From: Candidatus Omnitrophota bacterium
Lineage (GTDB): Bacteria > Omnitrophota > Gorgyraeia > Zapsychrales > Zapsychraceae
DNA: 64,000 nucleotides
Direction of reading: 5' to 3'
Assembly: GCA_016212005.1 (NCBI GenBank)
Contig: JACRHP010000053.1
Span: forward strand, 2,402-66,401
The notes under the pieces are model-generated. The model did not search any database, was not told where the DNA came from, and saw only the letters and a program-made list of their open reading frames with translations. Numbering within the stretch: the first letter of the stretch is position 1; each line of letters begins with the position of its first letter. A program made the translations under genes and the position numbers. Below are positions 8,481 to 63,372 of this stretch, piece by piece.

Positions 8481-8543
8481 GGTCACCCAGTCACCAGGTC
8501 ACCCGTCACACGTGTGACGTTGTGACTTGGTGACCTTGTGACG
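8481..8543. repeat. Intergenic modular palindrome, GTCAC type (4 x ~8-nt GTCAC units, then 4 x GTGAC units)
   Basis: Left arm is ggtcacc-cagtcacc-aggtcacc-cgtcaca. The centre is the perfect palindrome cgtcacacgtgtgacg. Right arm is tgtgacg-ttgtgac-ttggtgacc-ttgtgacg and runs into the lepA start. Confidence 0.8.
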
Positions 8544-8548
8544 TGTAT

Positions 8549-10339
8549 ATGGACAAACCCCTCATCCGCAATTTTTCCATTATCGCCCATATCGACCACG
8601 GGAAATCCACCCTGGCCGACCGGCTTTTGCTGCATGCGGGCGCCATCGATGAGCGCAAGTTCCGCAACCAGATGCTCGATGACATGGACTTAGAGCGCGA
8701 ACGCGGGATCACGATCAAAGCTTCAGCGGTCAAGCTCAACTATAAGGCCAAGGACGGCAAGACCTATGCGTTCAACCTGATCGACACCCCCGGCCACGTG
8801 GACTTCACGTACGAAGTGGAAAAATCCTTACGCGCCTGTGAAGGGGCGCTGTTGGTCGTTGACGTTTCCCAGGGCGTAGAATCGCAGACGGTCGCCAATT
8901 ATTATCTGGCCGTTGAGAATAATTTGGAGATTTTACCGGTTATCAACAAGATTGACATTGCCAACATCGACATCGACCACGCCAAGTTGCAGCTCATTGA
9001 AATTCTCAATTTCAAGGAAAAGGACATCCAGATGGTCTCGGCCAAAGAGGGGATCGGCATCCCCGAGCTTTTCGAGAAGATCGTCGAATTCATCCCCAAG
9101 CCGGAGGGCGACGATAATTTGCCCTTGCAGGCTTTGATTTTTGACATGAAGTATGATATTTACAAGGGGATCATCATTTACGTGCGCGTCGTCAACGGTG
9201 TCATCCGCGAGAATATGGCGATCAAGATGATGCACACGGCTAAGGAAGCGCATATCGAGGAGATCGGCGTCTTCGCCCCCGAAGCGGTACGGGTGAGGGA
9301 GTTAACGAGCGGCGAGGTCGGCTATATCACCTGCAACATCCACGAGCCGCGTGAGGTGAGCGTGGGCGATACCTTGACCGAGACGGCCAACCCTGCGGCC
9401 GAGCCGTTGCAAGGCTACCGTCAATTGAACCCGCTCGTTTTCTGCGGAGTGTATCCGGTCAACTCCAAGGATTTTTTGCAGCTGCGCGAGGCGATCGACA
9501 AGCTGCGCCTGAGCGACCCGAGCTTTGTGTTCGAACCCGAAAGTTCGCAGTCTTTCGGCAACGGTTTTCGCTGCGGCTTTCTGGGGCTGTTGCATATGGA
9601 TATTATCCAGGAGCGTTTGCAGCGTGAATACGACCTGAATCTTATCCTGACGACCCCGAACGTGCGCTACCGCGTGCACACCCGTGACGGCCAGGTCATC
9701 GACCTGGAGTGCCCGTCGGCCTTACCGGATGGCTCCAGCATCCAGAAGGTGGAGGAGCCTTATTTGACCGTGACGATCCTCACCCCCGTTGAACACATGG
9801 ACAACGTGATCCAAATAGCCAAGGACAAGCGCGGGATCTTCGTGCAGAGCGAGTACGTGTCGGACCGGATGCGGGTCGTCTTTGACATCCCGCTCTCGGA
9901 AGTGATCGTGGATTTCAACGACATGATCAAATCCGTCACGCGCGGGTATGGTTCCATCGATTACAAATTGAAAGGTTTCTTACCGGCGAAGATCACCAAG
10001 CTCGATATCCTGATCAACGATTCGGTCTGTGACGCGTTTTCCTGTCTGGTGCACAAGGAATCCGCGTATCAAAAAGGCCTGGCGCTGGTGACCAAGCTCA
10101 AGGAACTGATCCCGCGCCAGCTTTTCGAGGTGCGTGTCCAGGCGTCCTGCGACGGGCGCATCATCTCGAGCGCGAGCATTAAACCAATGGGTAAAAATGT
10201 GACGGCCAAATGTTACGGCGGGGACATCACGCGCAAGAAAAAACTTTGGGAGAAACAAAAAGAAGGCAAGAAACGCATGAAGCAGGTGGGCAACGTCGAG
10301 ATCCCGCAGGAAGCGTTTCGTGCAGCTTTAAAATTGTAA
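8549..10339 (+). CDS. lepA: Elongation factor 4 (LepA)
   Basis: IRNFSIIAHIDHGKSTLADR and DTPGHVDF G-domain motifs, with the LepA C-terminal domain GKKRMKQVGNVEIPQEAF. An alternative GTG start exists at 8543. Confidence 0.95.
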   Translation: MDKPLIRNFSIIAHIDHGKSTLADRLLLHAGAIDERKFRNQMLDDMDLERERGITIKASAVKLNYKAKDGKTYAFNLIDTPGHVDFTYEVEKSLRACEGALLVVDVSQGVESQTVANYYLAVENNLEILPVINKIDIANIDIDHAKLQLIEILNFKEKDIQMVSAKEGIGIPELFEKIVEFIPKPEGDDNLPLQALIFDMKYDIYKGIIIYVRVVNGVIRENMAIKMMHTAKEAHIEEIGVFAPEAVRVRELTSGEVGYITCNIHEPREVSVGDTLTETANPAAEPLQGYRQLNPLVFCGVYPVNSKDFLQLREAIDKLRLSDPSFVFEPESSQSFGNGFRCGFLGLLHMDIIQERLQREYDLNLILTTPNVRYRVHTRDGQVIDLECPSALPDGSSIQKVEEPYLTVTILTPVEHMDNVIQIAKDKRGIFVQSEYVSDRMRVVFDIPLSEVIVDFNDMIKSVTRGYGSIDYKLKGFLPAKITKLDILINDSVCDAFSCLVHKESAYQKGLALVTKLKELIPRQLFEVRVQASCDGRIISSASIKPMGKNVTAKCYGGDITRKKKLWEKQKEGKKRMKQVGNVEIPQEAFRAALKL

Positions 10340-10388
10340 GTGAGAACCAATGTTGAAATCCGAAATCTGAATTTTATGAAAGCGAACT

Positions 10389-11009
10389 ATGATGACCAGT
10401 AAGCCTCCAGTCCCAAAATCCGCGGCGCGTGAGTGGGTCGAATCGATCATTGTCGCGCTGCTGCTGGCCCTTTTTATCCGGGAATTTTTTATCCAGGCCT
10501 TCAAGATCCCCAGCGGGTCGATGATCCCCACGCTTCTCGTCGGTGACCGGTTGATGGTCAACAAACTCCGCTACGGGCCGAAGGTCCGTTTCACGGATAA
10601 ACGCCTGCCGGGCTTTTCCAAAGCTAAACGCGGGGATATTATTGTCTTTATTTTTCCCGATGACCCCAAGCGGGATTTCATCAAACGTCTGATCGCTTTT
10701 GGGGGCGAGACGGTTGAGATCAAGGACGGGGATATTTATATTAACGGCAAGCATGTCGAGGACCTGCCGATCGACAAAATTTATTATTATAACCGCGGAC
10801 AGTACGGGGAGGAAGGGCACCCTGTGACCGTGCCCAAGGGATACGTTTATGTGCTGGGAGATAACAGCGCTTCCAGCCATGACAGCCGGTTTTGGGGGGT
10901 TGTCCCCGACGCCAATATCATCGGCCGGGCGGAATTTATTTACTGGCCGCTTACCCGCTTGCGGTTTTTGGACGAGGCTCCGGGCGACCAAAATGGACGG
11001 AAAAAGTAG
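10389..11009 (+). CDS. lepB: Signal peptidase I
   Basis: SGSMIPTL catalytic Ser box, KRLIAFGGE Lys box and GDNSASSHDSRFWG. lepA-lepB synteny is conserved. Confidence 0.9.
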   Translation: MMTSKPPVPKSAAREWVESIIVALLLALFIREFFIQAFKIPSGSMIPTLLVGDRLMVNKLRYGPKVRFTDKRLPGFSKAKRGDIIVFIFPDDPKRDFIKRLIAFGGETVEIKDGDIYINGKHVEDLPIDKIYYYNRGQYGEEGHPVTVPKGYVYVLGDNSASSHDSRFWGVVPDANIIGRAEFIYWPLTRLRFLDEAPGDQNGRKK

Positions 11010-14994: not shown

Positions 14995-16380
14995 TTAAAC
15001 GGATTTGAATTCGGCGATGAGCGCCTGCACGGTCTCTTTGGCGTCGCCGAAGACCATCCGGGTGTTGTCGTAATAGAACAGTTCGTTCTCGATGCCGGCG
15101 AATCCGGAGCGCATCGAGCGCTTCAGGACAAAGACAGTTTTTGCTTTATCGACGTTGATGATGGGCATGCCGTAGATGGGGCTGGACTTGTCGTGGCGCG
15201 CCGCGGGATTAACGACATCGTTGGCGCCGATGACGACCGCGACGTCAATGGTGTCGATAATGGGGTTGATCGCGTCCATTTCAAAAAGCTGGTCGTAAGG
15301 GACGTCGGCTTCCGCGAGTAGAACGTTCATGTGCCCGGGCATGCGCCCCGCCACGGGGTGGATCGCGTAACGCACCTCCGCGCCGTTATTCTCCAGAATT
15401 TTTCCCAGTTCGCGCACCGCGTGCTGGGCCTGCGCGACCGCCATTCCGTAGCCGGGGACAAAGACGACCGAGCGCGCCGCTTCCAGGACATAATAGGCGT
15501 CCTTGACGCTGATCGCTTTGGCCTCGCCCTTGACCTCGGAGGCCGCTTTTTTGGTAACGCTGCCAAATCCGCTAAATAAAACGTTGGTGAGCGAGCGGTT
15601 CATCGCCTTGCACATGATCCTGGTGAGGATGATCCCGCTGGCCCCGACCAATGATCCCGCCACAATGAGCATGCTGTTGATAATGACAAATCCCGTCGCG
15701 GCCCCGGCCATCCCCGAATAGCTGTTCAAGAGCGAGATCACCACCGGCATGTCCGCCCCGCCGATGGGGATCACGACCATCACCCCGAGAATGAGGGACA
15801 AGACCATAATGGCGACGAACAAAGGATAATTGTCCGCCGGATCCGGATGCAGGCAAAAGATGATCCCGCCGACAATCAGCGCCCCCAGCAAAAGTGAGTT
15901 GACGATCTTTTGTCCGGCAAAAAGGATCGGCTTGCCGGTGACGAATTTTTCTTCCAGCTTGGCCCAGGCGATAAAGCTTCCCGTGAAGGTGACCCCGCCG
16001 ATCAAGACCGCCAGGTACGTGCTGATTGTGGTTAACAAAGAAGACTCGGGTTGATAATGATACGCGGCCCAGCCGACAATAAAGCTCGCCAGCCCGCCGG
16101 AGCCGTTGAGCAACCCCACCATCTGCGGCATCGAGGTCATGGCCACCCGGGTGGCCGCCAGAATTCCGATCCCGGTACCGACGGCCAGGCCGAAAGCGAT
16201 CCATTGCCATTCCATCATGCCGCGCGTTAACAGGGTGGCGACGATGGCAATGAGCATCCCCACGGCGGAGAGCTGGTTGGCCTTGCGCGCCGAAACCGGC
16301 GAGCTCATCCGCTTGAGCCCGATCACGAACAAAACGGAGGAAATGATGTAACAAATTGTGATGAAGATCGTCAGGCTCAC
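14995..16380 (-). CDS. pntB: NAD(P) transhydrogenase subunit beta
   Basis: Polytopic N-terminus followed by the dIII NADP(H) domain (VPGYGMAVAQAQH, HPVAGRMPGHMNVLLAEA, GANDVVNP). Start set at GTG 16380, forming a GTGA overlap with the pntAB stop. The ORF's 39-aa N-terminal extension is rejected. Confidence 0.9.
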   Translation of the reverse strand: MSLTIFITICYIISSVLFVIGLKRMSSPVSARKANQLSAVGMLIAIVATLLTRGMMEWQWIAFGLAVGTGIGILAATRVAMTSMPQMVGLLNGSGGLASFIVGWAAYHYQPESSLLTTISTYLAVLIGGVTFTGSFIAWAKLEEKFVTGKPILFAGQKIVNSLLLGALIVGGIIFCLHPDPADNYPLFVAIMVLSLILGVMVVIPIGGADMPVVISLLNSYSGMAGAATGFVIINSMLIVAGSLVGASGIILTRIMCKAMNRSLTNVLFSGFGSVTKKAASEVKGEAKAISVKDAYYVLEAARSVVFVPGYGMAVAQAQHAVRELGKILENNGAEVRYAIHPVAGRMPGHMNVLLAEADVPYDQLFEMDAINPIIDTIDVAVVIGANDVVNPAARHDKSSPIYGMPIINVDKAKTVFVLKRSMRSGFAGIENELFYYDNTRMVFGDAKETVQALIAEFKSV

Positions 16381-18155: not shown

Positions 18156-18277
18156 GTTGTTTAGATTAGCAAACCGTAAATCAAAGTCAAGGAAGAAATA
18201 ACATGTTTGCGGTCTTGACAAGGGTTTGAAGTGGTGTAAGGATAATCACATTAAAGATTGCAAGAAGCGATTTCTTA

Positions 18278-18408
18278 AATCCGAAGTACGAAATCCGAAA
18301 TACGAAATAAATCCAAAATTTAAAACATTTTAAATTCTAAACGGTCGGTTTTCGGGATTTGGATTTAAAAATTTTGATTTTGTTTCGTATTTCGTGCTTC
18401 GAATTTCG
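18278..18408. repeat. AT-rich modular palindrome, CGAAAT(A/C) type, in the divergent pntAA/fprA-like promoter region
   Basis: Left arm is aaatccgaagtacgaaatccgaaatacgaaataaatcc. Right arm is ggatttggattt...tttcgtatttcgtgcttcgaatttcg. The inner palindrome is aatttaaaa c attttaaatt. Confidence 0.65.
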
Positions 18409-18449
18409 TGTTTGGCATTAAATTGGCGCTGTGGAGAAGGAGTCAGTTT

Positions 18450-33799: not shown

Positions 33800-33843
33800 T
33801 TTATTTAATATTACCGTAGCATGAATGAAAGTCAAACGATTTT

Positions 33844-33916
33844 CGTGTCTAGTATCTCGTCGTTCGTACTCGTAGAGGATTAATCCGAGATACGAGGTGC
33901 GAGATACGAGATACGG
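33844..33916. repeat. Intergenic modular palindrome, CGAGATA heptamer type
   Basis: Left arm is cgtgtct-agtatctcgt-cgttcgtactcgta. Loop is gaggattaatc. Right arm is cgagatacgag-gtgcgagatacgagatacgg. Lies between divergent genes. Confidence 0.75.
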
Positions 33917-35303: not shown

Positions 35304-35378
35304 AAAGTCACAAGGTCGCAAAGTCACAACGTCACCTGAAAATTTATATGTGATGTGGTAACGGGTGACCTGGTGACC
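35304..35378. repeat. Intergenic modular palindrome, GTCAC type
   Basis: Left arm is aaagtcac-aaggtcgc-aaagtcac-aacgtcacc. Loop is tgaaaatttata. Right arm is tgtgatg-tggtaac-gggtgacc-tggtgacc. Starts 2 nt after the stop codon. Confidence 0.8.
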
Positions 35379-40310: not shown

Positions 40311-40847
40311 ATGAGAAAAACGTTTATGTGGGGCGTGGGGCTCGTCGTGTGTTTATGGTGTATGACATCTTCGACTTATGCGGGAACGGAGGGGACAACG
40401 GCCAAGGCCGTTATCACGGCGACCGATACGGGGGCCGCGGTTTTGGGGGAAATCAGTTTTGTGGAAAGAGGAGTCGGCGTTGAAGCGACCGCGCATTTGG
40501 CCGGCGTGCCGGCCGGCACGCACGGATTTCATGTCCATGAAAACGGCAGTTGCGCGGACGCCGGAGCGGCCGCGGGCGGGCATTTTAATCCTGATCATCG
40601 GGAACACGGTCTTTTACCCAAAGACGGATTAGAAGGCGCCCATGCGGGTGATTTGGGCAATATCACTATTGACACCGACGGCAGCGGTGATTATTCCGCC
40701 TTCCTGAAGGGCTTGAGCCTTTCTGAAGGCAAATATAATATCGCGGGCAAAACCGTCATCCTGCACGAGAAAGCCGATAATTTCGGCCAGCCAGTTGGTA
40801 ATGCCGGCGGGCGGATCGGCTGCGGGATTATTGAAATTATTGAATAG
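40311..40847 (+). CDS. sodC: Cu/Zn superoxide dismutase (periplasmic)
   Basis: Signal peptide. HGFHVHENGSC, GGHFNP, HAGDLGN and GGRIGCGII motifs. Confidence 0.9.
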   Translation: MRKTFMWGVGLVVCLWCMTSSTYAGTEGTTAKAVITATDTGAAVLGEISFVERGVGVEATAHLAGVPAGTHGFHVHENGSCADAGAAAGGHFNPDHREHGLLPKDGLEGAHAGDLGNITIDTDGSGDYSAFLKGLSLSEGKYNIAGKTVILHEKADNFGQPVGNAGGRIGCGIIEIIE

Positions 40848-40913
40848 TCGTCAGTCATCAGACTTCAGTCGTCAGATCGCTGTCTGAAGTCTGAAAGCTG
40901 ATGACTGAAGTCT
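40846..40913. repeat. Intergenic modular palindrome, NNNTCAG heptamer type
   Basis: Left arm is agtcgTCAG-tcaTCAG-actTCAG-tcgTCAG. Right arm is CTGAagt-CTGAaag-CTGAtga-CTGAagt. Begins at the sodC stop codon. Confidence 0.75.
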
Positions 40914-40920
40914 TAATATT

Positions 40921-41460: not shown

Positions 41461-41493
41461 ATCTTGTCGGAACAATCTCAGGGAGGAATAGAC

Positions 41494-43455: not shown

Positions 43456-43460
43456 GTGCA

Positions 43461-43538
43461 TGTCTCGTATCTCGTCGTTCGTCGCTCGTATCTCGAAGAT
43501 GTTTTTACGAGATACGAAACACGAGATACGAGATACGA
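43461..43538. repeat. Intergenic modular palindrome, CGAGATA heptamer type
   Basis: Left arm is tgtctcg-tatctcg-tcgttcg-tcgctcg-tatctcg. Right arm is acgagat-acgaaac-acgagat-acgagat-acga. Fills the acs-cobB spacer. Confidence 0.8.
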
Positions 43539-43545
43539 TTGAGTC

Positions 43546-44274: not shown

Positions 44275-44275
44275 T

Positions 44276-44335
44276 CGTATCTCGTATCTAGTATCTCGCA
44301 TCTCGTTTTGCTGGACAACGAGATACGAAATACGA
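44276..44335. repeat. Intergenic modular palindrome, CGAGATA heptamer type
   Basis: Left arm is cgtatct-cgtatct-agtatct-cgcatct-cgtt. Right arm is acgagat-acgaaat-acga, running directly into AGGAGG of the next gene. Confidence 0.8.
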
Positions 44336-44346
44336 AGGAGGTTGCT

Positions 44347-45902: not shown

Positions 45903-45936
45903 TTCTTAGTTTATTAATCCCAAATCTTTTTGGGTG

Positions 45937-45945
45937 TGATATAAT
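45937..45945 (+). promoter_or_regulatory. Possible extended -10 element (TGATATAAT) upstream of sdhC
   Basis: A TGnTATAAT match lies 29 nt before the sdhC ATG. No good -35. A short hairpin (cccaaa-tctt-tttggg) lies just upstream. Confidence 0.3.
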
Positions 45946-45973
45946 CACCACGAAATCGTAAAGCAAACATCCT

Positions 45974-46693: not shown

Positions 46694-46706
46694 CAGAACA
46701 TTAAAA

Positions 46707-48623
46707 ATGGAAACCCTTAACGCGAAAATTCCGGCAGGTCCTCTTAAAGACAAGTGGATCAGTCACAAAGATAAAATCAAGCTGGTCAACCCGGCTAACA
46801 AGCGCAAGTACCGCGTGATCGTCGTCGGCACCGGCCTCGCCGGCGCCTCGGCGGCCGCCTCGCTCGCCGAGCTCGGGTATAACGTCGAGGCCTTCTGTTT
46901 CCAGGACAGCCCGCGCCGGGCCCACAGCATCGCGGCCCAGGGGGGGATCAACGCGGCCAAGAATTATCCCAACGACGGCGACAGTGTTTACCGTCTGTTC
47001 TACGACACGATCAAGGGCGGGGATTTCCGTTCGCGCGAGGCCAACGTCTATCGTCTCGCGGAAGTCAGCAACGGCATCATCGACCAGTGTGTCGCCCAGG
47101 GCGTGCCCTTCGCCCGCGAATATTCCGGGTATCTGGACAACCGTTCCTTCGGCGGGGCGCAGGTCTCGCGCACCTTTTACGCGCGCGGACAGACCGGCCA
47201 GCAGCTTCTCCTGGGCGCGTACAGCGCTTTAATGAAGGAAGCCGGCAAGGGGACGCTCAAGATACATCCGCGCACGGAAATGCTCGACCTCGTCGTTGTT
47301 GACGGCAAGGCGACGGGGATCATCGCACGGTGTCTGTTGACCGGCAAGACCAGCGCGCACGCGGCCGACGCGGTTGTCCTGGCGACCGGCGGTTACGCCA
47401 ACGTCTTTTATCTTTCCACCAACGCCAAGGCGAGCAACGTGACCGCGATCTGGCGCGCGCACAAAAAAGGGGCCTTTTTCGCCAACCCCTGTTACACGCA
47501 GATCCACCCCACCTGCATCCCGGTGCACGGGGATTACCAGTCGAAGCTGACCCTGATGAGCGAGAGCCTGCGTAATGACGGCCGTGTCTGGGTGCCGAAA
47601 AACAAGGGCGACAGCCGTCCGCCTTCCGCGGTCCCGGAGAGTGATCGCGATTATTTTCTGGAACGCAAATACCCGGGTTTCGGCAACCTTGTCCCGCGCG
47701 ATCTGGCCTCGCGCAACGCCAAAGAACAGTGCGACGAAGGCAAGGGGGTTGGCCCGACGGGCCAGGCGGTCTATCTAGACCTGGGCGAATCCATCGGGCG
47801 CCTGGGCCGGGACGTTATCCGCGAGCGCTACGACAATTTGTTTGAAATGTATGAACGCATCACGGGTGTCGACACTTACAAGGAGCCGATGATGATCTAC
47901 CCGGCGCCCCATTACACGATGGGCGGGCTGTGGGTCGATTACAATTTGATGAGCAACCTCCCGGGACTTTTCGTCGTCGGTGAGGCGAATTTTTCCGACC
48001 ACGGCGCCAACCGCCTGGGCGCGAGCGCCCTGATGCAGGGGCTTGCCGACGGGTATTTTATCCTGCCGTACACGATCGGCGATTATCTGGCGATCCAGCC
48101 GCCGGGAAAAGCGGACACGGAGCACCCGGCGTTCGCGCAGGCCCGCGAGGCCGCGGCCCGGCGCACGGGGGACCTTTTGCAGATCAACGGCAAGAGAACG
48201 CCGGATGAATTCCACCGCGAGCTGGGCCGGCTGTTATGGGACAAGTGCGGGATGTCCCGGCGCGAGGACGGATTAAAGGAAGCCCTGAAAAAGATCCCCG
48301 CGGTCCGCGAGGAGTTCTGGAAGGACCTGCGTGTCCCCGGCAGCGGCGAGGAGCTCAACCAGGCCCTTGAGCGCGCGGGGCGCGTGGCGGATTTTCTCGA
48401 GTTCGCCGAGCTGATGGTTCGCGACGCCCTGCACCGGCGAGAATCCTGCGGCGGGCATTTCCGCGAGGAGTCCCGGACCTCCGAGGGCGAGGCCCTGCGC
48501 GACGACGAAAATTTTTCCTACGTCGCGGCCTGGGAGTTCAAGGGCGCGGGCAGGGATCCGGTGTTGCACAAAGAACCGCTCGCGTTTGAAGAAGTCCATT
48601 TGGCAACGAGAAATTACAAATAG
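46707..48623 (+). CDS. sdhA: Succinate dehydrogenase/fumarate reductase flavoprotein subunit
   Basis: [17 protein letters not shown] motif, [14 protein letters not shown] (covalent-FAD His region), HYTMGGL and [11 protein letters not shown]. Confidence 0.9.
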
Positions 48624-48710
48624 GTCACAACGACACAAAGTCACAAAGTCACAAGGTCACAAGGTCACCAGGAAAAACCGGGTGACGTGGTGACTGGTGA
48701 CATGGTGACC
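48622..48710. repeat. Modular palindrome, GTCAC type, between sdhA and sdhB
   Basis: Left arm has six units: aggtcac-aacgacac-aaagtcac-aaagtcac-aaggtcac-aaggtcacc. Loop is aggaaaaacc. Right arm has four units: gggtgac-gtggtgac-tggtgac-atggtgacc. The sdhB RBS tcaggag follows. Confidence 0.85.
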
Positions 48711-48720
48711 TCAGGAGAAT

Positions 48721-54623: not shown

Positions 54624-56327
54624 ATGGCAAGATGGATCATTTATTGGGTGGTGGTGGCAACCGCAGGGGTGTTCGCCTTTAAGGTTTTTCAAAGAGATTC
54701 CCTCCAGACATTGGTCACACCCGGGGCTTTGACCAAAGCGCACGCCCAATACGAAAAAAAATGTGACGCGTGTCACGCGCCTTTTAGCAAGGAAACCCAG
54801 AACAATTTGTGCGTTGAGTGTCACAAGACAATCGGGGAAGAGATGAAAAACAGTCTGGGGCTTCATGGGCGGCTGGCGGCGGTAAAGGAAGGTAAATGCA
54901 CCCGTTGTCATACTGATCACCGGGGGCGGGATTTTGATATTGTCGGCCTGGTGAAGGAGGGCTTCACCCATCAGTTCACCGATTTCACGCTGGCCGGCGC
55001 CCATACCCGTCCGGGTATCGGCTGTGACGCCTGCCACGCACCGGGGAAGAAGTTCCGTGAGGCGCCGGTGGATTGTTTCAGCTGTCATCAGAAAGATGAC
55101 GCCCATCAGGGAAAGTTGGGCGCGCAATGTTCCCAGTGCCACAACGAAACCTCGTGGCAGAAGACCTATTTTGACCACCGCCAGACGCGTTTCCCGTTAA
55201 AAGGCAAACATGAGCAATTAGCTTGTGACGCGTGCCATGCCGACCGGACGTACAAAAACGCGCCCGTTGAATGCGCGGGGTGTCATTTGATCAACGATAT
55301 CCATGACAGTCCCCTGGATGAAAAATGTTCCCGGTGCCATGTGGAAGATGACTGGAAAAAGGTTTCTTTCGATCATAACAAGGAGACAAAATTTGTTCTG
55401 GAAGGAGCGCATACCCAAACGGCCTGTGACGCCTGCCACACAGGGTTTTCTTTTAAGGGAAATAAGCCGGGAGCGCAATGTATTGACTGCCATCAGGGGG
55501 ATGATATCCATAAGGGCCGCTATGCTACCCGCTGTGATCAATGTCACGTTCTGGCGTCATGGAAAGAAGTCCGTTTTGATCACGCCAGGGACACAAAATT
55601 TCAGCTTAAAGGCGCGCACAGCCAGGTGAAATGTGAAGCGTGCCACCAAGAGGCCGCTTCCGGGATAAAACTTGAGACCTCCTGCGCGAGTTGTCATCAA
55701 GGGGACGACATCCATAAAGGGGAACTGGGGGCACAATGTTCCCAGTGTCACAACGAGAATGGCTGGGGGGAGCGGATAGTTTTTGACCATGATCTGACGA
55801 AGTTTCCTTTGATCGGATTGCACGCGGTCACTTCGTGTGATGAATGTCATCTTTCCCCGACGTTCAAGGATGTCAGGACCGATTGCCTTTCTTGCCATCG
55901 GGACGACGATGAACATCGCGGGACGCTCGGGAGCGGTTGCGGCCAGTGCCATAATCCCAACGGCTGGCGGTTGTGGGAATTCGACCATGATAACCAGACG
56001 AAATTCAAGCTGGAGGGAGCCCACGCGGGGCTAAAGTGTCAGGAATGTCACACCCGGCCCATGGACGGGCAGGTGGTCAAACAAAAATCGGACTGTTTGG
56101 AATGTCACGCGAAAGATGATGCGCATCAGGGACGTTTTGGTGTACAATGTGCTCTGTGCCATTTTGCCGATTCATTTAAAAGGATCAAAGAGTTCCACAA
56201 TGTGCCGGAAACAAAAAATTGTTTCAGCTGTCATGAGCAAGACGATGTCCATGACGGGCATTTCGGCCGGCAGTGCGGCCAGTGCCATACTGTCGAATCC
56301 TTTAAAAAGATCATTATGAGCAACTGA
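54624..56327 (+). CDS. Multihaem c-type cytochrome, 23 CxxCH motifs, repeated c7/c3-like trihaem modules
   Basis: I counted 23 CxxCH motifs in the translation. A recurring module CxxCH...CxxCH(x)DD(x)H.G..G..CxxCH...FDH occurs about seven times. The N-terminal hydrophobic segment MARWIIYWVVVATAGVFAF has no obvious cleavage site. Confidence 0.9.
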   Translation: MARWIIYWVVVATAGVFAFKVFQRDSLQTLVTPGALTKAHAQYEKKCDACHAPFSKETQNNLCVECHKTIGEEMKNSLGLHGRLAAVKEGKCTRCHTDHRGRDFDIVGLVKEGFTHQFTDFTLAGAHTRPGIGCDACHAPGKKFREAPVDCFSCHQKDDAHQGKLGAQCSQCHNETSWQKTYFDHRQTRFPLKGKHEQLACDACHADRTYKNAPVECAGCHLINDIHDSPLDEKCSRCHVEDDWKKVSFDHNKETKFVLEGAHTQTACDACHTGFSFKGNKPGAQCIDCHQGDDIHKGRYATRCDQCHVLASWKEVRFDHARDTKFQLKGAHSQVKCEACHQEAASGIKLETSCASCHQGDDIHKGELGAQCSQCHNENGWGERIVFDHDLTKFPLIGLHAVTSCDECHLSPTFKDVRTDCLSCHRDDDEHRGTLGSGCGQCHNPNGWRLWEFDHDNQTKFKLEGAHAGLKCQECHTRPMDGQVVKQKSDCLECHAKDDAHQGRFGVQCALCHFADSFKRIKEFHNVPETKNCFSCHEQDDVHDGHFGRQCGQCHTVESFKKIIMSN

Positions 56328-58213
56328 TGTTTGTGCCGGGGCAGTTATTGCAGATGTCAAAAAGGATCATTTTCGTTTTGTTGTTCGTTTTTTTGTGGGT
56401 TCCGCGGGCTGACGCGCAGCGCATTGACTTTGACCATTTTGCCGCGGGATTCCCTTTGACGGGAGCCCACGCTGGACTTGACTGCGAAAGCTGTCATGTC
56501 CGCGGTATTTTTAAAGGAACACCCACGCAGTGCGCTTCCTGTCATAAGCAGGGAGGGAACGTTTCCGCCACCCCGACGCCCGCCAACCATATCAACACCA
56601 CCAATGAATGCGAGGCTTGCCATACGACCGAGAGCATGAGCACGGTCACCCGCCTGGACCATTCGGCCGTTCTGGGAACTTGCGTCAGTTGTCACAATGG
56701 CGTCAAGGCAGCCGGAAAATCAGCGACCCATATTATGAGTTCAAAGGATTGCGCCCAGTGCCATACGACCATGAACTGGGGTTCGGCCCGTTTCGATCAC
56801 GCGGCGGTCACTGGAAAATGCAGCAGTTGCCATAACGGCACCAGTGCCACGGGCAAATCGGCCAGACATATTCCCAGTTCCAATAATTGCGATGATTGTC
56901 ACACGACGACGAGCTGGAGCGGCGCGCGGTTCGATCACAGTTCAGCAACCGGGACATGCAGCAGTTGTCATAACGGGACGATGGCAACGGGCAAATCGCC
57001 GACGCATATCCCCAGTTCGAACAATTGCGGGGATTGTCACACGACGACAAGCTGGAGCTCGGCGCGTTTTGACCACGGTGCGGTGACGGGAAGCTGCTCC
57101 AGTTGCCACAATGGAACAACGGCCACAGGTAAATCGGCCCGGCACATGAGTACGACCAACGCGTGCGCGGATTGCCATAGTACCAGTACCTGGATACCGG
57201 TCGTACGGGTGGACCATGCGTCAGTCAACGGGACCTGTTACAGCTGCCACAACGGGACGACGGCTCCGGGCAAGATCCCGACGCACATCGCGAGTTCGAA
57301 TAACTGCGATGATTGTCACACGACAACAAGCTGGAGCGGCGCGCGGTTCGACCACGGCGCGGTGACGGGAAGTTGCAGCAGCTGCCATAACGGGACGAGC
57401 GCGACCGGCAAATCGCCAACGCATATGAATACGGCCAACACGTGTGAGGATTGCCACAGCGTGAACACGTGGTCTCCGGTCATGCGGGTGGACCACTCCG
57501 CGGTCAACGGGACCTGTTACGGTTGTCACAGCGGGACAACGGCCACGGGTAAAACTCCGACGCACATCGCGAGTTCGAATAACTGCGATGATTGTCACAC
57601 GACCAACGCGTGGACGCCTGCGGTCTTTGACCATGGTTCGACAACAGGGACGTGTTTCAGTTGCCACAACGGAACGACGGCCACGGGTAAAACTCCGACG
57701 CACATCGCGAGCTCCAATACGTGCGACGATTGCCACACGACGGTCGCCTGGATCCCGGCCAATTTTGACCACGGGTCGGTAACGGGAAGCTGCAGCAGCT
57801 GTCATAACGGGACAATGGCGACCGGAAAACCAGGCAACCATTTTGTGACCACTCTGCAATGCGATGAGTGTCACACCGTGTCCGCATGGTTGCCGACGCG
57901 TCCCTATAATCATTCCTCCGGTGAGTATCCGGGAGACCACCGCTCCAGCGTCACCTGTCTGGATTGTCACAAATCCAATAGCCAGGCGGCAACATGGACC
58001 TACGCCAGTTACCGGCCGGACTGCGCGGGCTGTCATGCCGGAAGATATAAGCAGGATGCGCACAAGAAATATGAAACCCCGACGACGGCCTTTTACACGG
58101 TGAGCGAACTGCGGGATTGCGCCGGTTCCTGCCACCTGTACACCGACAGCGGTATGACGACGGTCAAGAAATCCAGGACGGGAGAGCATCGCGTTTCAAA
58201 CGGCGACTTCTGA
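56327..58213 (+). CDS. Multihaem c-type cytochrome, 23 CxxCH + 1 CxxxCH, doubled-CXXCH tandem repeats
   Basis: Signal peptide (alternative start M10: MSKRIIFVLLFVFLWVPRADA). Nine ~46-aa units follow the pattern FDH-x6-CSSCHNGTxATGKxxxHIxSSNNCDDCHTTxxW. The terminal motif is CAGSCH. Confidence 0.9.
   Translation: MFVPGQLLQMSKRIIFVLLFVFLWVPRADAQRIDFDHFAAGFPLTGAHAGLDCESCHVRGIFKGTPTQCASCHKQGGNVSATPTPANHINTTNECEACHTTESMSTVTRLDHSAVLGTCVSCHNGVKAAGKSATHIMSSKDCAQCHTTMNWGSARFDHAAVTGKCSSCHNGTSATGKSARHIPSSNNCDDCHTTTSWSGARFDHSSATGTCSSCHNGTMATGKSPTHIPSSNNCGDCHTTTSWSSARFDHGAVTGSCSSCHNGTTATGKSARHMSTTNACADCHSTSTWIPVVRVDHASVNGTCYSCHNGTTAPGKIPTHIASSNNCDDCHTTTSWSGARFDHGAVTGSCSSCHNGTSATGKSPTHMNTANTCEDCHSVNTWSPVMRVDHSAVNGTCYGCHSGTTATGKTPTHIASSNNCDDCHTTNAWTPAVFDHGSTTGTCFSCHNGTTATGKTPTHIASSNTCDDCHTTVAWIPANFDHGSVTGSCSSCHNGTMATGKPGNHFVTTLQCDECHTVSAWLPTRPYNHSSGEYPGDHRSSVTCLDCHKSNSQAATWTYASYRPDCAGCHAGRYKQDAHKKYETPTTAFYTVSELRDCAGSCHLYTDSGMTTVKKSRTGEHRVSNGDF
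56645..57887 (+). repeat. Intragenic tandem repeat, ~138 nt x ~9 (one di-haem unit each)
   Basis: Long near-identical DNA stretches recur. For example, aataattgcgatgattgtcacacgacgacgagctggagcggcgcgcggttcga at ~56880 matches aataactgcgatgattgtcacacgacaacaagctggagcggcgcgcggttcga at ~57297, with another copy at ~57577. Confidence 0.85.
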
Positions 58214-61848: not shown

Positions 61849-62204
61849 TGGCCGCGCAGAAAAAAAATAATCCGGGAAAAGAGCGCAGGACGAGCAAACG
61901 TTCCGCCATTGAGCTCGCCGCCTCCTTCGGGATCGACGAAGACCCCCGCCCCGAGCGCGAGGCGAAGATCAACGATGTCTCCGGGGGCGGATTTTGTTTC
62001 ACCTCGGACCACAAGCTCGAGGAGGACGAAGAGCTCCAGCTGGCGGTGGACCTGGACGTGCTCGAACAGGTCGTCATCAACGTCCGGGTGGTGTGGGTCG
62101 AGAAGGTCAAGGGGAGGAAGGGATACCGCGTCGGGGTGCGGCTGATCGAATCCGACGGCCCCGAGTTCGAGAGGTTCATGGAGTTTTATAGAAAACAAAT
62201 TTGA
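61848..62204 (+). CDS. PilZ domain protein
   Basis: ERRTSKRSAI (RxxxR) and DVSGGGFCF (DxSxxG) motifs. 118 aa. ATG overlaps the hemN stop (TGATG). Confidence 0.7.
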   Translation: MAAQKKNNPGKERRTSKRSAIELAASFGIDEDPRPEREAKINDVSGGGFCFTSDHKLEEDEELQLAVDLDVLEQVVINVRVVWVEKVKGRKGYRVGVRLIESDGPEFERFMEFYRKQI

Positions 62205-62206
62205 GC

Positions 62207-62280
62207 CGTGAAGCGTCGCTCGTGAAGAGTATCTCGTAAAACTTTTCTCACGCTTCACTCTTCACGTTCCACGAGATACG
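62207..62280. repeat. Intergenic modular palindrome, mixed CGTGAAG / CGAGATA heptamers
   Basis: Left arm is cgtgaag-cgtcgct-cgtgaag-agtatct-cgt. Right arm is cacgcttcac-tcttcacg-ttcc-acgagatacg and ends exactly at the hemE ATG. Confidence 0.75.
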
Positions 62281-63297
62281 ATGAAAGAGTCATCATTCCT
62301 CCAGGCCTTCCAGGGCACCAACAAGCAGATCCCCGTCTGGTTCATGCGCCAGGCCGGGCGGTATCTTCCCGAATATCAGGCCCTGAAGAAAAAGCATTCC
62401 CTGCAGAAAATGTTTGACACGCCGGAGTTGGCCGCGGAAATCACCTGTCTTCCTGTCGATATTTTGGGCGTCGACGCCGCGATTTTATTCGCCGATATCC
62501 TGACGCTGCCCAAACAAATGGGCTTTGATATCCGCTTTGATGACCGCCACGGGCCGGTCATCGGGGGTACGGTCGCCGGCGACCTGCACCACCGTGAAGA
62601 CATCCATGACGCGGACGATTTTTCCGGCCTGACGAAAACGATCCGTTTGGTCAACGAACAGCTTGACGGCCGGGTCCCCTTGATCGGCTTTGCCGGATCG
62701 CCTTTTACGGTGTTGACGTATTTGATCGAAGGCGGTTCCTCCGTCAACTTCACCCGGACGTTCCGGTTCATCAACGAACATCCCGTGCATTTTCAGGCGT
62801 GGATGGAATTGTTGACGCAAAACACGGTCCGTTACCTGACCGCGCAGAAAGAGGCGGGCATCAAGGCCTTTCAACTGTTCGACAGCTGGGCGGGGATCCT
62901 GCGGCCGGCGGATTTCGCCCGCTGGGTTTTGCCTTTCGCGCGCCGGATCTTCGCGGAGGTCGATCTGCCGTCGATCTATTTTGTGCGCAACTGCGCGCAT
63001 CTGCTGGCGCTGATGGACCAATCGGAAGCCGATTTCTTATCCGTCGACCACACGGTTGTCCTCGGGCACCACACGGTCATCGAGAAAACGAAAAAAGGCA
63101 TTCAGGGGAATCTGTTCAACGGCCTTTTGTACGCGGACGACGCCACGCTAGCCAGGGAAGTGCGCGATGTTTTAGTCGGCGGCGTCAAACACGGCCGGTA
63201 CATCTTCAATCTAAGCCACGGCGTTTTCCCCGATACGGACCCCGACAAGCTCAAGTTCATCGTGGAGCAGGTGCATTCGTTTAAGAAGAAAACTTAA
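62281..63297 (+). CDS. hemE: Uroporphyrinogen decarboxylase
   Basis: PVWFMRQAGRYLPEY signature, FADILT and FDSWAG. Confidence 0.9.
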   Translation: MKESSFLQAFQGTNKQIPVWFMRQAGRYLPEYQALKKKHSLQKMFDTPELAAEITCLPVDILGVDAAILFADILTLPKQMGFDIRFDDRHGPVIGGTVAGDLHHREDIHDADDFSGLTKTIRLVNEQLDGRVPLIGFAGSPFTVLTYLIEGGSSVNFTRTFRFINEHPVHFQAWMELLTQNTVRYLTAQKEAGIKAFQLFDSWAGILRPADFARWVLPFARRIFAEVDLPSIYFVRNCAHLLALMDQSEADFLSVDHTVVLGHHTVIEKTKKGIQGNLFNGLLYADDATLAREVRDVLVGGVKHGRYIFNLSHGVFPDTDPDKLKFIVEQVHSFKKKT

Positions 63298-63298
63298 T

Positions 63299-63372
63299 CG
63301 TATTTCGTATCTCGTATCTCGTATTTCGCTGGAAGGCGACACGAGCGACGAGATACGAGCGACGAGATACGA
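63299..63372. repeat. Intergenic modular palindrome, CGAGATA heptamer type
   Basis: Left arm is cgtattt-cgtatct-cgtatct-cgtattt-cg. Right arm is acgagcg-acgagat-acgagcg-acgagat-acga, followed by aggttATG. Confidence 0.8.

What the first reader, a model, noticed from the sequence alone, without database searches (positions are those of the whole stretch)
8481..63372. Window-wide class of intergenic 'modular palindromes': hairpin arms made of tandem 7-8-nt units, with conserved architecture but different cores
**Seen in sequence:** at least ten elements of 60-130 nt. They lie at 8481, 18278, 33844, 35304, 40846, 43461, 44276, 48622, 62207 and 63299.
- Each has a left arm of 4-6 tandem short units and a right arm of the reverse-complement units around a short loop.
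- Three core types occur: nnGGTCAC/GTGACCnn (8-nt period), CGTATCT/ACGAGAT with AT-rich variants CGAAATA (7-nt period), and nnnTCAG/CTGAnnn (7-nt period).
- Eight of the ten sit between co-directional genes. They begin 0-11 nt after a stop codon and end at, or inside, the next gene's Shine-Dalgarno or start codon. Examples: ...acgaAGGAGG before 44347, ...gatacgATG at hemE, ...ggtgacctcaGGAG before sdhB.
- They also create spurious ORF extensions, for example the 70-codon N-terminal extension of the 31982 ORF.

**Inference:**
- The same architecture with unrelated cores suggests either a generating mechanism (slippage plus palindromisation) or a structure-recognising system, rather than one mobile sequence family.
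- Their position suggests roles in mRNA 3'-end protection, operon-internal processing, or occlusion of the downstream RBS.
Basis: partly seen in the sequence, partly recalled or inferred. Interest (0 to 1): 0.65.

Follow-up and report, generated by a model that had tools for sequence, protein, structure and literature searches.

The report
Foldback tandem-heptamer repeats between operon genes
An uncultured Omnitrophota genome has most of its short gene-to-gene spacers filled by 55-140-nt hairpin repeats whose arms are strings of 7- or 8-nt units, a little-studied repeat type already seen in Xanthomonas and Geobacter, which here turns over fast between close relatives and shares its units across phyla.

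Summary
All ten elements are at the stated coordinates. They are far beyond chance: 7 periodic-arm hairpins against 0 in 20 shuffles. Nine of ten fold strongly (z -4.2 to -6.0). Eight of them fill 8 of the 11 co-directional spacers of 40-110 nt, running from stop codon to RBS or start codon. None looks like a terminator and none matches Rfam.

The window is from a Candidatus Omnitrophota bacterium. Close relatives carry different fillers at the same junctions: at least 6 states at hemE-hemY. Arms gain or lose whole units (21 nt = 3 units). Near-identical copies sit at non-orthologous sites, and one sits in a distant relative. The CGT-heptamer unit set (CGTATCT, CGTGAAG, CGTCGTT and others) recurs in many phyla.

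The cores are therefore several dispersed repeat families, not purely local inventions. The architecture itself is published but unexplained: convergent GGGAATC array pairs in Xanthomonas, and paired hepta/octamer sites of classes 1-3 in Geobacter metallireducens.

Best reading: non-autonomous foldback repeats that spread, slip, and are tolerated or conserved because the hairpin keeps the stop and start codons adjacent. An RNA-level function is inferred, not shown; I found no sense-strand bias. Interest is moderate.

The parts
8471..8548 (+). GTCAC-octamer foldback between cmk (7781-8470) and lepA (ATG 8549). Arms are 8481-8512 and 8513-8544. The outer stem 8471-8476/8543-8548 fills the whole 78-nt spacer.
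   Evidence: RNA fold -41.7 kcal/mol, z -5.25.
18272..18416 (+). Long AT-rich CGT-heptamer foldback in the opposite arm order (ACGAAAT... then ...ATTTCGT). It lies between the divergent genes pntA (17025-18221, -) and an FAD oxidoreductase (18450, +).
   Evidence: Fold -45.0 kcal/mol, z -5.97. Its right arm is near-identical to the L127 pilZ-hemE element.
33843..33916 (+). CGT-heptamer foldback between the divergent genes for sulfite/nitrite reductase (31982-33799, -) and thiF/moeB (33968, +). It lies between the two promoter-like sites.
   Evidence: Fold -35.6 kcal/mol, z -5.37. Promoter-like hexamers at 33835-33808 (-) and 33930-33958 (+).
35304..35378 (+). GTCAC-octamer foldback between DUF2237 (stop 35302) and the dienelactone hydrolase gene (ATG 35381 or 35405).
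   Evidence: Fold -28.8 kcal/mol, z -4.18.
40846..40913 (+). TCAG/CTGA-heptamer foldback that overlaps the sodC stop codon (40845-40847) and ends 7 nt before the isochorismatase ATG (40921).
   Evidence: Fold -33.4 kcal/mol, z -5.81.
43461..43540 (+). CGT-heptamer foldback (units ATCT, CGTT, CGCT) between acs (stop 43455) and sir2 (ATG 43546).
   Evidence: Fold -38.9 kcal/mol, z -4.73. A homologous copy, including the loop, is at L121 13510-13590.
44275..44336 (+). CGT-heptamer foldback that starts at the first base after the sir2 stop (44274). AGGAGG follows at 44335-44340 and the PEBP ATG at 44347.
   Evidence: Fold -24.3 kcal/mol, z -4.19.
48622..48712 (+). GTCAC-octamer foldback that overlaps the sdhA stop (48621-48623). 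AGGAG follows directly and the sdhB ATG is at 48721.
   Evidence: Fold -41.1 kcal/mol, z -5.31.
62207..62280 (+). Inverted pair of CGT-heptamer arrays (units GAAG, CGCT, ATCT) between pilZ (stop 62204) and hemE (ATG 62281). The arms are only partly mirror-ordered. The 3' arm abuts the start codon.
   Evidence: Fold -21.1 kcal/mol, z -2.10. 97% identical to the L134 copy.
63298..63373 (+). CGT-heptamer foldback from the first base after the hemE stop (63297) to GAAGG just before the hemY ATG (63378).
   Evidence: Fold -40.2 kcal/mol, z -5.58. Orthologous copies are in L126, L127 and L130.

Best explanation
**What the elements are.** They are non-coding foldback repeats. Each is an inverted pair of short tandem arrays. 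The units are 7 or 8 nt long, with 3-5 conserved core positions and variable remaining positions. They belong to several dispersed repeat families:
- in this window: CGT heptamers, GTCAC octamers and CTGA heptamers;
- in close relatives: also CCGG, CCAGT, GTAC and A-rich units.

**Shown.**
- The families colonise the few non-coding bases between genes, mostly inside operons.
- The arrays grow and shrink by whole units.
- The elements are replaced quickly at orthologous junctions.
- Copies appear at non-orthologous junctions and in distant relatives.
- The CGT unit repertoire is shared with many other phyla.

**Inferred.**
- Spread depends on some host or trans-acting activity that I could not identify. 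Slippage and strand-switching remodel the arms after arrival.
- On the polycistronic mRNA each element folds into a -21 to -45 kcal/mol hairpin. Its base joins the upstream stop codon to the downstream RBS or start codon.
- The insertion therefore adds almost no effective distance between the two cistrons. A terminating ribosome melts the 5' arm and so frees the 3' arm and the RBS.
- This would explain why foldbacks in particular are tolerated at these tightly packed junctions, and why they are conserved once present. It may also give 3'-end protection or processing sites.
- They are not terminators.
For: **Real and non-random.**

**Placement.** Only intergenic. They fill 8 of 11 co-directional gaps of 40-110 nt, from stop to start. 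No U-tract or terminator call coincides with them. No Rfam family matches.

**Turnover at orthologous junctions.**
- hemE-hemY carries a CGTATC foldback in the window, L126, L127 and L130. It carries a CCAGT foldback in L120, a GTAC foldback in L123, a GAAGCAA array in L125/L128 and a CGTGAAG foldback in L134. It carries nothing in L121 and L124.
- pilZ-hemE has at least 4 fillers (same calls).

**Whole-unit change.** A 21-nt, 3-unit difference in one arm. CCGG arrays of 2-5 units.

**Dispersal.**

**Lateral exchange or conversion.** 97% identity over about 110 nt, against about 70% in the flanking coding sequence.

**Cross-phylum repertoire.**
- TRF extends the hits into arrays (143 arrays).
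- CGTGAAG lies within 100 nt in 33 of 119 loci, against 5 of 119 control segments.
- Of neighbouring CGT arrays, 43 of 50 pairs are inverted.
- 118 of 424 arrays have an inverted partner, against 12 in the control.

**Dispensable.** Relative L124 has none in 21 kb, and its genes overlap.

**Conserved when retained.** 91% identity, against 69-71% at hemE third codon positions, P about 1e-5. After losing 3 left units, L127 still pairs the outermost bases at -19.3 kcal/mol.

**Published precedent.** Xanthomonas has 70-75 convergent pairs of about 4-unit (GGGANTN) arrays. They are 89-93% intergenic and lie mostly between co-directional ORFs, near the upstream ORF (PMC4692102). G. metallireducens has paired tandem hepta/octamer sites on opposite strands, for example between proB and proA (PMC2700814).
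Against: - No transposase, RAYT or other candidate mobilising gene is in the window; 40 ORFs were scanned.
- I saw no target-site duplications at filled versus empty junctions.
- There is no sense-strand advantage in folding energy overall: window 8 of 10, relatives 6 of 14.
- Window versus L130 shows no compensatory changes. Two substitutions break pairs, one repairs a wobble and one creates a wobble.
- Two of the ten lie between divergent genes. One of these sits between promoter-like sites and may not be transcribed at all.
- Some inverted array pairs (62207; L034 and L040 in other phyla) have poor complementarity. That is not what a hairpin-based rationale predicts.
- The conservation could reflect recent spread rather than constraint.
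Confidence: 0.5

Rival explanations
1. The elements are purpose-built cis-regulatory RNA hairpins that evolved in place. They would act as intercistronic stem-loops that set subunit stoichiometry, by blocking 3'-5' exonucleases, by offering RNase III sites (selective RNA processing and stabilisation), or by occluding the next RBS. On this view the tandem units are only the easiest mutational route to a long stem.
For: - Stop-to-RBS geometry and strong folds.
- Location inside plausible operons: sdhAB, acs-sir2, hemN-pilZ-hemE-hemY.
- Conservation above third-codon-position level when retained.
- No terminator features.
- SRPS stem-loops are an established mechanism in Clostridia. I saw only the titles and abstracts of PMC4423207 and PMC8219983.
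Against: - The same junction carries unrelated fillers, or none, in close relatives. L124 has overlapping genes instead.
- Identical copies occur at unrelated junctions.
- The unit repertoire is shared across phyla.
- There is no sense-strand G-U bias.
- Two elements lie in divergent promoter regions.
Confidence: 0.2
2. The elements are DNA-level binding platforms. The tandem units would be iterated sites for a DNA-binding protein: a nucleoid-associated or global regulator, as proposed for Geobacter, or a recombinase or transposase that also moves them. What matters on this view is the inverted orientation of the arrays, not base-pairing.
For: - Inverted orientation is kept even where the variable positions do not match (62207; L034 and L040).
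- Folding is strand-symmetric.
- One element lies between divergent promoter-like sites.
- The conserved-core-plus-variable-positions pattern looks like a recognition motif.
- The IHF/HU hypothesis appears in PMC2700814.
Against: - No candidate protein was identified.
- Units of 7-8 nt with 3-5 fixed bases are short for a specific DNA site.
- At least seven different cores in one lineage would need as many binding specificities.
- Most pairs are highly complementary, which a binding-site model does not require.
- Placement inside operons from stop to start is unusual for regulator sites.
Confidence: 0.15
3. The elements are a pure mutational by-product. Replication slippage of heptamers or octamers, followed by template-switch palindromisation, would create them in situ wherever spacer DNA is unconstrained. 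On this view there is no mobility and no function.
For: - Whole-unit indels.
- Unequal arm copy numbers.
- A 2.4-unit proto-array or remnant at the L120 X-resB junction, where L121 has a full foldback and L123 has none.
- Heptamers are the most abundant long SSR class in most prokaryotic genomes with 5-11-nt repeats, which has been attributed to polymerase slippage (Mrazek 2007, as summarised in PMC4679880).
Against: - It cannot explain near-identical copies, loops included, at non-orthologous sites.
- It cannot explain the 97% identical copy in a distant relative.
- It cannot explain the shared multi-unit repertoire across phyla.
- It cannot explain conservation well above third-codon positions.
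Confidence: 0.1
4. The elements are assembly or adapter artefacts. The heptamer ATCTCGT shares 9 nt with an Illumina adapter segment; that resemblance is recalled from memory.
For: - Contigs of relatives often end inside arrays.
- The resemblance of ATCTCGTAT to adapter sequence, from memory.
Against: - There are ten elements with three cores, each set precisely between a stop and a start codon.
- Orthologous copies occur in independent assemblies from JGI, ENA, Logan and NCBI.
- They are present in the closed Ca. Nitrospira defluvii chromosome and in cultured Vibrio, Photobacterium and Pseudoalteromonas.
Confidence: 0.01

Closest known systems
Xanthomonas GGGAATC / (GGGANTN)n heptamer repeats with convergent pairs (Rehm et al. 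2015, PMC4692102)
   Same: - Arrays of mostly about 4 tandem heptamers with fixed and variable positions.
- 70-75 cases per genome of two arrays in convergent orientation on opposite strands, able to form stem-loops.
- 89-93% are intergenic, mostly between co-directional ORFs and close to the upstream ORF's end.
   Different: - One G-rich core, interpreted as G-quadruplex-forming. The cores here are not G-rich, and several coexist.
- In Xanthomonas the average distance is 28 nt from the upstream ORF and 160 nt to the downstream one. Here the hairpin spans the whole spacer up to the RBS.
- 90% of the Xanthomonas repeats lie between the same ORFs in two species. The junctions here turn over among close relatives.
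Geobacter metallireducens 'global regulator binding sites' classes 1-3 (Aklujkar et al. 2009, PMC2700814)
   Same: - Pairs of sites on opposite strands at variable distance. Each site has 3-5 tandem octa-, nona- or heptanucleotides (GTTGCTYN, TCTCCGTS[Y], MTYCTGA).
- Several classes occur in one genome.
- One pair lies between proB and proA, inside an operon.
- The class 3 unit ATTCTGA is identical to a foldback in relative L130 (5272-5304). It shares the CTGA core with window element 40846.
   Different: - They were interpreted as IHF/HU sites on DNA without a test.
- The unit sequences of classes 1 and 2 are not seen here.
- There is no comparative evidence on turnover, and no cross-phylum link was made.
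TAACTGA direct heptamer repeats of marine Beggiatoaceae, Cyanobacteria and Bacteroidetes (MacGregor 2015, PMC4679880)
   Same: - Tandem heptamers with a CTGA core, 2-6 copies.
- Intergenic, within a few nucleotides upstream of start codons and overlapping the RBS position.
- Patchy cross-phylum distribution suggesting horizontal spread with no evident mechanism.
   Different: - Almost all are direct arrays: 169 direct sets against one indirect repeat. They are not foldbacks.
- A single unit sequence.
- The proposed role is as a binding site for S1, Csp or CsrA-like proteins.
REP/BIME/REPIN elements of Proteobacteria
   Same: - Abundant extragenic palindromes, often in transcribed spacers after genes.
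- Known from E. coli work (recalled from memory) to stabilise upstream mRNA and to affect translation when they lie within about 15 nt of a stop codon.
- Non-autonomous and dispersed.
   Different: - REPs are 20-40-nt single palindromes with a GTAG or CGTC end tag (PMC3733652 abstract) and are linked to RAYT transposases.
- The elements here are 55-140 nt with arms built of tandem 7-8-nt units.
- They have no end tag.
- No RAYT was seen in the window.
Cyanobacterial STRR heptamers (Calothrix/Anabaena) and eukaryotic Foldback (FB) transposons
   Same: - STRR: tandem heptanucleotides in intergenic DNA of operons (mentioned in PMC4692102; unit sequences recalled from memory only).
- FB elements: inverted arms made of tandem short repeats (from memory).
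   Different: - STRR are described as direct arrays.
- FB elements are kilobase-scale eukaryotic transposons.
- Neither comparison was tested here. Both are leads only.

Membership tests
Paired inverted tandem-heptamer/octamer arrays (Xanthomonas GGGAATC pairs; Geobacter classes 1-3) | Arrays of about 3-6 tandem units of 7-9 nt, with conserved core positions and variable other positions | tested here: met
   TRF periods of 7 or 8 with 2.7-5.6 copies per arm; sequences.
Paired inverted tandem-heptamer/octamer arrays (Xanthomonas GGGAATC pairs; Geobacter classes 1-3) | Two arrays in inverted (convergent) orientation on opposite strands within about 100 nt | tested here: met
   Ten of ten elements in the window. 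Across loci, 43 of 50 neighbouring CGT-array pairs are inverted.
Paired inverted tandem-heptamer/octamer arrays (Xanthomonas GGGAATC pairs; Geobacter classes 1-3) | Intergenic, mostly between co-directional ORFs and near the end of the upstream ORF | tested here: met
   Eight of ten are co-directional and start 0-5 nt from the stop codon.
Paired inverted tandem-heptamer/octamer arrays (Xanthomonas GGGAATC pairs; Geobacter classes 1-3) | Unit sequence identical to a published class (GGGAATC; GTTGCTYN; TCTCCGTS; MTYCTGA) | tested here: inconclusive
   None of the window units equals a published consensus. Element 40846 (AGTCTGA, AAGCTGA, TGACTGA) shares only the CTGA core. Relative L130 5272-5304 has ATTCTGA, identical to Geobacter class 3 units.
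REP / BIME (RAYT-associated) | Single imperfect palindrome of 20-40 nt | tested here: not met
   The elements are 55-140 nt and their arms are tandem sub-repeats.
REP / BIME (RAYT-associated) | GTAG or CGTC tetranucleotide tag at one end of the palindrome | tested here: not met
   By inspection of the ten sequences, no consistent terminal GTAG or CGTC is present. CGTC occurs only inside some units (CGTCGTT, CGTCGCT). The criterion comes from the PMC3733652 abstract.
REP / BIME (RAYT-associated) | A RAYT (IS200/IS605-like Y1 transposase) gene in the genome, flanked by the repeats | tested here: inconclusive
   No transposase family appears among 40 window ORFs scanned with Pfam. Only 64 kb of the genome is available.
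MITE | Terminal inverted repeats plus a target-site duplication, and a related autonomous IS | tested here: not met
   No direct duplication flanks the elements. Filled versus empty junctions show none. No parent IS was seen. Presence of a parent IS elsewhere in the genome cannot be tested.
Intrinsic (Rho-independent) terminator | GC-rich stem-loop followed directly by a U-run | tested here: not met
   None of the 31 terminator-like calls in 33000-49500 coincides with an element. The 3' arms are followed by an SD or ATG, not by T-runs.
Rfam RNA families | Match to a curated covariance model at or above its gathering score | tested here: not met
   Only RNase P at 705-1114 passes the gathering score. 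Permissive searches give only sub-threshold miRNA-hairpin noise.
CRISPR array | Direct repeats of 23-50 nt separated by unique spacers of similar length | tested here: not met
   The units are 7-8 nt, head to tail, with no spacers.
TAACTGA-type direct heptamer repeats | Direct arrays of TAACTGA immediately upstream of start codons | tested here: not met
   Different units and an inverted-pair architecture. Only the position next to the start codon and the CTGA core of 40846 are shared.

The most novel reading that the evidence does not exclude
The elements could be the visible product of an undescribed, widely distributed mechanism that writes or propagates inverted tandem-heptamer/octamer arrays into intergenic DNA. 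That would amount to a prokaryotic 'foldback' mobile-element class. Its recognition would rest on unit cores such as CGT, CTGA, CCGG and GTCAC. It would be shared across Omnitrophota, Nitrospirota, Planctomycetota, Atribacterota, Desulfobacterota, Chloroflexota, Xanthomonas and Geobacter. It would unify the scattered reports of unexplained heptamer repeats (STRR, TAACTGA, GGGAATC, Geobacter classes 1-3).
Probability: 0.2. Interest if true: 0.8.

Novelty: new member of a known kind. Interest (0 to 1): 0.5.

Why it matters
Heptamer repeats are the most over-represented long simple repeats in many bacterial genomes. Their origin and role have stayed unexplained since they were catalogued (PMC4679880, PMC4692102).

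This lineage offers an unusually clear natural experiment:
- Elements fill most mid-sized operon spacers.
- The same junction carries six different states in close relatives.
- Single-arm unit losses are visible.
- A copy has been exchanged between distant lineages.

This makes three questions directly testable with metatranscriptomes and simple two-cistron reporters:
- how the repeats spread;
- whether they act as RNA hairpins or as DNA sites;
- whether a foldback is a 'distance-neutral' insertion between translationally coupled genes.

There are also practical consequences. The arrays break short-read assemblies. They lack stop codons, so gene callers extend ORFs through them: HemE homologues are annotated 8-18 residues too long, and one window ORF is 70 codons too long.

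Tried and rejected
- **Exact-protein look-up.** The window's HemE is not on record. I identified the organism from homologue names instead.
- **First periodic-array detector.** It was too strict, finding only 5 arrays. I replaced it with a hairpin-first scan.
- **Chirality rule** (pyrimidine-rich 5' arm, purine-rich 3' arm). It holds for 5 of 6 CGT elements in the window. Across 59 pairs the left-arm purine fraction is above 0.55 in 37 and below 0.45 in 15. One Promineifilum locus (L084) has five elements of the opposite order. There is no universal rule.
- **Sense-strand RNA selection via G-U asymmetry.** The window gives 8 of 10 and the relatives 6 of 14. Not significant.
- **Compensatory substitutions.** Comparing window, L130 and L127, I found none.
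- **sdhA-sdhB empty-site comparison.** The sdhAB genes of L120 and L124 are not alignable at the junction and are probably paralogues, so it was uninformative.
- **Target-site duplications.** None seen.
- **Literature.** The literal sequence search gave no hit. STRR plus heptanucleotide gave no hit. An Omnitrophota plus repeats search gave nothing specific.
- **Phage and plasmid carriers.**
  - No phage match.
  - The only 'plasmid' matches are plain direct arrays on Vibrio and Pseudoalteromonas chromids.
- **CCTAACGG hairpin module.** It occurs in relatives but not in the window's intergenic DNA.
- **Start- and stop-codon-free units.** By inspection this is true for CGTATCT but false for CGTGAAG, which contains GTG and TGA. 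I dropped it as an explanation.

Full report

Yes.
- Tandem Repeats Finder reports period 7, 8, 14 or 16 arrays on both arms of every element. Almost no other arrays of those periods occur in the 64 kb.
- The inverted-repeat finder pairs the arms at 76-89% complementarity.
- My own gapless hairpin scan found 11 hairpins, 7 of them with arms periodic at 7 or 8 nt. Twenty dinucleotide-preserving shuffles gave a mean of 0.8 hairpins and none periodic. The three weaker elements (33844, 35304, 62207) fall below that threshold because of indels or imperfect mirroring.
- Folded as RNA, nine elements have z-scores of -4.2 to -6.0 at -24 to -45 kcal/mol. Element 62207 is weaker (-21 kcal/mol, z -2.1), because its two arms carry CGT-type units in an order that is not a mirror image.

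**2. Context.**

HemE homologues that carry a source name are named as Candidatus Omnitrophica/Omnitrophota, and the closest is 93% identical. The window is therefore from an uncultured Omnitrophota bacterium.

Pfam fixes the flanking genes.
- Eight elements lie between co-directional genes: cmk>lepA, DUF2237>dienelactone hydrolase, sodC>isochorismatase, acs>sir2, sir2>PEBP, sdhA>sdhB, pilZ>hemE and hemE>hemY.
- Two lie between divergent genes (18278, 33844).

With a curated ORF map, the window has eleven co-directional gaps of 40-110 nt. Eight of them are entirely these elements. No other gap contains one.

The hairpin base begins 0-5 nt after the stop codon, or overlaps it. It ends 0-18 nt before the next start codon, with AGGAGG, AGGAG or GAAGG at or just after the 3' arm in three cases.

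No terminator-like site coincides with an element, and none is followed by a T-run. Rfam gives nothing at gathering thresholds except RNase P at 705-1114. Permissive searches return only sub-threshold miRNA-hairpin noise.

The spurious 70-codon extension of ORF 31982-34009 is confirmed.

**3. Comparison with relatives: turnover, slippage, dispersal.**

I fetched the hemE neighbourhood from relatives with 73-94% HemE identity. The same two junctions are strikingly variable.

The hemE-hemY junction carries:
- the CGTATC foldback in the window, L126, L127 and L130;
- a CCAGT-heptamer foldback in L120;
- a GTAC-heptamer foldback in L123;
- a GAAGCAA array in L125/L128;
- a CGTGAAG foldback in L134;
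- a plain 40-nt spacer in L121;
- overlapping genes in L124.

The pilZ-hemE junction carries:
- the CGTGAAG-type element in the window and L134;
- TTATCCGG octamer arrays of 2-5 units in L120-L123 and L125;
- a 170-nt A-rich heptamer foldback in L126 and L130;
- in L127, a long AT-rich CGT foldback whose right arm is nearly identical to the window's element at 18278, a non-orthologous site.

Other points follow.
- The window's 43461 element has a homologue, loop included, at a different junction in L121.
- L127's hemE-hemY element lacks exactly 21 nt, three units, of the left arm only.
- The X-resB junction shows a graded series: overlapping genes in L123 and L124, a 2.4-unit array in L120 and a full foldback in L121.
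- L124 has no element in 21 kb. The elements are therefore dispensable.
- The window's pilZ-hemE element, plus 24 nt of pilZ and about 10 nt of hemE, is 97% identical to L134. The coding DNA just upstream is about 70% identical, and HemE itself is 73% identical. This looks like a short recombination tract.

**4. Constraint.**

Where an element is retained, it is more conserved than neighbouring synonymous-rich sites.
- Window versus L130: 73 of 80 positions identical (91%), against 71% at hemE third codon positions.
- Window versus L127: 54 of 59 (92%), against 69%.
- Both give a binomial P of about 1e-5.

This indicates either purifying selection on the structure or a more recent common origin of the element than of the gene. 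The L134 case shows that the second is possible.

I found no evidence that selection acts specifically on the sense-strand RNA.
- Folding energy favours the sense strand in 8 of 10 window elements but only 6 of 14 elements in relatives.
- The four stem substitutions between the window and L130 comprise two disruptions, one wobble repair and one new wobble. None is compensatory.

After losing three left units, L127 still pairs its outermost bases at -19.3 kcal/mol. The base of the hairpin, which joins stop and start, is therefore preserved.

**5. Beyond the lineage.**

By my arithmetic about 70 hits are expected by chance.
- The hits are real arrays: TRF extends them into 143 arrays.
- They are flanked by the same companion units as in the window. 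CGTGAAG lies within 100 nt in 33 of 119 loci, against 5 of 119 control segments. The pattern is similar for CGTGAAT, CGTATTT and CGTCGTT.
- The genomes include Omnitrophota, Nitrospira (among them the closed Ca. N. defluvii chromosome), Pirellulales and other Planctomycetota, Atribacterota, Smithellaceae, Chloroflexota, Latescibacterota and some cultured Vibrionaceae.
- Across all fetched loci, 118 of 424 period-7/8 arrays have an inverted partner nearby, against 12 in a control.
- Of neighbouring CGT arrays, 43 of 50 pairs are inverted: 33 as CGT...ACG and 10 in the opposite order.
- Arrays with different cores often sit side by side (36 of 109).
- Some inverted pairs (62207; L034, L040) have matching cores but mismatched variable positions. 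Inverted orientation is therefore not always accompanied by good pairing.

**6. What is already known.**

The architecture is published, though unexplained.
- Rehm et al. 2015 describe about 185 (GGGANTN)n heptamer arrays per Xanthomonas genome, mostly of four units. They are 89-93% intergenic and lie mainly between co-directional ORFs, close to the upstream ORF. There are 70-75 convergent pairs on opposite strands that could form stem-loops (PMC4692102).
- Aklujkar et al. 2009 list three classes of paired sites on opposite strands in Geobacter metallireducens. Each site has 3-5 tandem octa-, nona- or heptanucleotides. One pair lies between proB and proA. The authors guessed these are IHF/HU sites (PMC2700814). 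The supplementary alignment shows ATTCTGA/CTCCTGA units. ATTCTGA is identical to a foldback in relative L130.
- MacGregor 2015 describes TAACTGA direct heptamers next to start codons in Beggiatoaceae, Cyanobacteria and Bacteroidetes. The paper notes a patchy distribution without a known transfer mechanism. It also summarises Mrazek's finding that heptamers dominate long simple repeats (PMC4679880).

The elements fail the tests for REP/BIME (size, end tag), MITE (no target duplication), terminator, CRISPR and Rfam families.

**7. Most likely explanation.**

*Shown:*
- They are several dispersed families of foldback repeats built from tandem 7-8-nt units.
- They occupy the spacers of operons, change by whole units, are replaced rapidly, are copied to other junctions and are exchanged between lineages.

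*Inferred:*
- Their spread needs a trans-acting or host activity that I could not identify.
- On the mRNA they form long hairpins whose base joins the upstream stop codon to the downstream RBS.
- A foldback is therefore a nearly 'distance-neutral' insertion between tightly packed, probably translationally coupled genes. Relatives without elements have overlapping stop and start codons.
- A terminating ribosome would open the 5' arm and free the RBS.
- This would explain both the tolerance of foldbacks at these sites and their conservation once present. Stabilisation of the upstream cistron or RNase III processing may follow.

I put about 0.5 on this composite. Most of the uncertainty lies in the functional half.

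*Rivals:*
- purpose-built regulatory RNA hairpins evolved in place (0.2);
- DNA-level binding arrays (0.15);
- pure slippage/template-switch by-product (0.1);
- artefact (0.01).

**8. Verdict.**
'Not one family' and 'slippage' are right. 'Unrelated cores imply no mobile families' is not, because each core is a dispersed family that reaches across phyla.
- The kind is already known from Xanthomonas and Geobacter, so this is a new member, or set of members, of a known but unexplained kind.
- Three things are new here: the density and stop-to-start packing, the junction-level turnover series, and the cross-phylum unit repertoire.
- Interest is moderate (0.5).

Noticed in passing
window 705-1114 (+): Bacterial RNase P RNA class A, at 114.8 bits against a gathering score of 100. 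This is a fairly low score, consistent with a divergent lineage.
   Followed up: no
window 56776-57813, inside ORF 56327-58213 (+): Tandem repeats of 138/279 nt (7.5 and 2.7 copies) lie inside a multihaem cytochrome gene (Cytochrome_C7, c3 and MtrC-like domains). The upstream gene 54624-56327 is a paralogue.
   Followed up: partly
window 16772-16849 and 16872-17018: Two long hairpins without unit periodicity: 37-nt arms with a 4-nt gap, and 22-nt arms 103 nt apart. They lie in the 527-nt gap between the minus-strand ORF 14995-16497 and pntA (17025-18221). A 105-aa minus-strand ORF (16377-16694) overlaps this gap.
   Followed up: no
window 39108-39745 and 39964-40206: A MazE-antitoxin/PIN-toxin pair and an 80-aa fragment of a Mg-chelatase ChlI-like gene lie in the lowest-GC stretch of the window (0.487). 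This may be a small mobile or decayed island.
   Followed up: partly
L134 2900-3010 versus window 62180-62290: A tract of about 110 nt (the last 24 nt of pilZ, the element, and the first codons of hemE) is 97% identical between two lineages. Their HemE proteins are 73% identical and the coding DNA just upstream of the tract is about 70% identical. This looks like a short recombination or conversion tract.
   Followed up: partly
L126 870-890, L127 2800-2845, L121 3640-3680: A small GC-rich hairpin module ending in CCTAACGG is nested inside the long AT-rich foldbacks of relatives, and stands alone in L121. The only match in the window (45069) lies inside the ORF 44619-45902.
   Followed up: partly
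L125, L126 and other hemE contigs of close relatives: The closest HemE homologues sit on contigs of only 1.1-2.5 kb. The L126 contig ends inside the CGTATC array, so short-read assemblies break at these repeats.
   Followed up: partly
P0004, P0010, P0013 (hemE homologues); window ORF 31982-34009: Gene callers extend ORFs through the stop-free arrays. HemE homologues are annotated at 346-356 aa instead of 338, and one window ORF is 70 codons too long.
   Followed up: yes
L001, L013, L014, L077, L080, L088, L111 (other phyla): Arrays with different cores sit directly next to CGTATCT arrays. Examples are (AGGGTGAC)n in a Caldilineaceae MAG and CCGG-type octamers in Atribacterota. In all, 36 of 109 CGTATCT arrays have a different array within 60 nt.
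   Followed up: partly
L136 1485-1535 (Vibrio sp. THAF190c chromid NZ_CP045339.1): A cultured Vibrio carries a plain direct (GATACGA)x7 array just after a terminator-like hairpin, with no inverted partner. This could serve as an experimental handle for the CGT heptamer.
   Followed up: partly
window 36343-36657 (+): A cold-shock-domain protein gene. Csp proteins are among the candidate heptamer-binding proteins proposed for TAACTGA repeats. The family is ubiquitous, so this is no evidence of a link.
   Followed up: no
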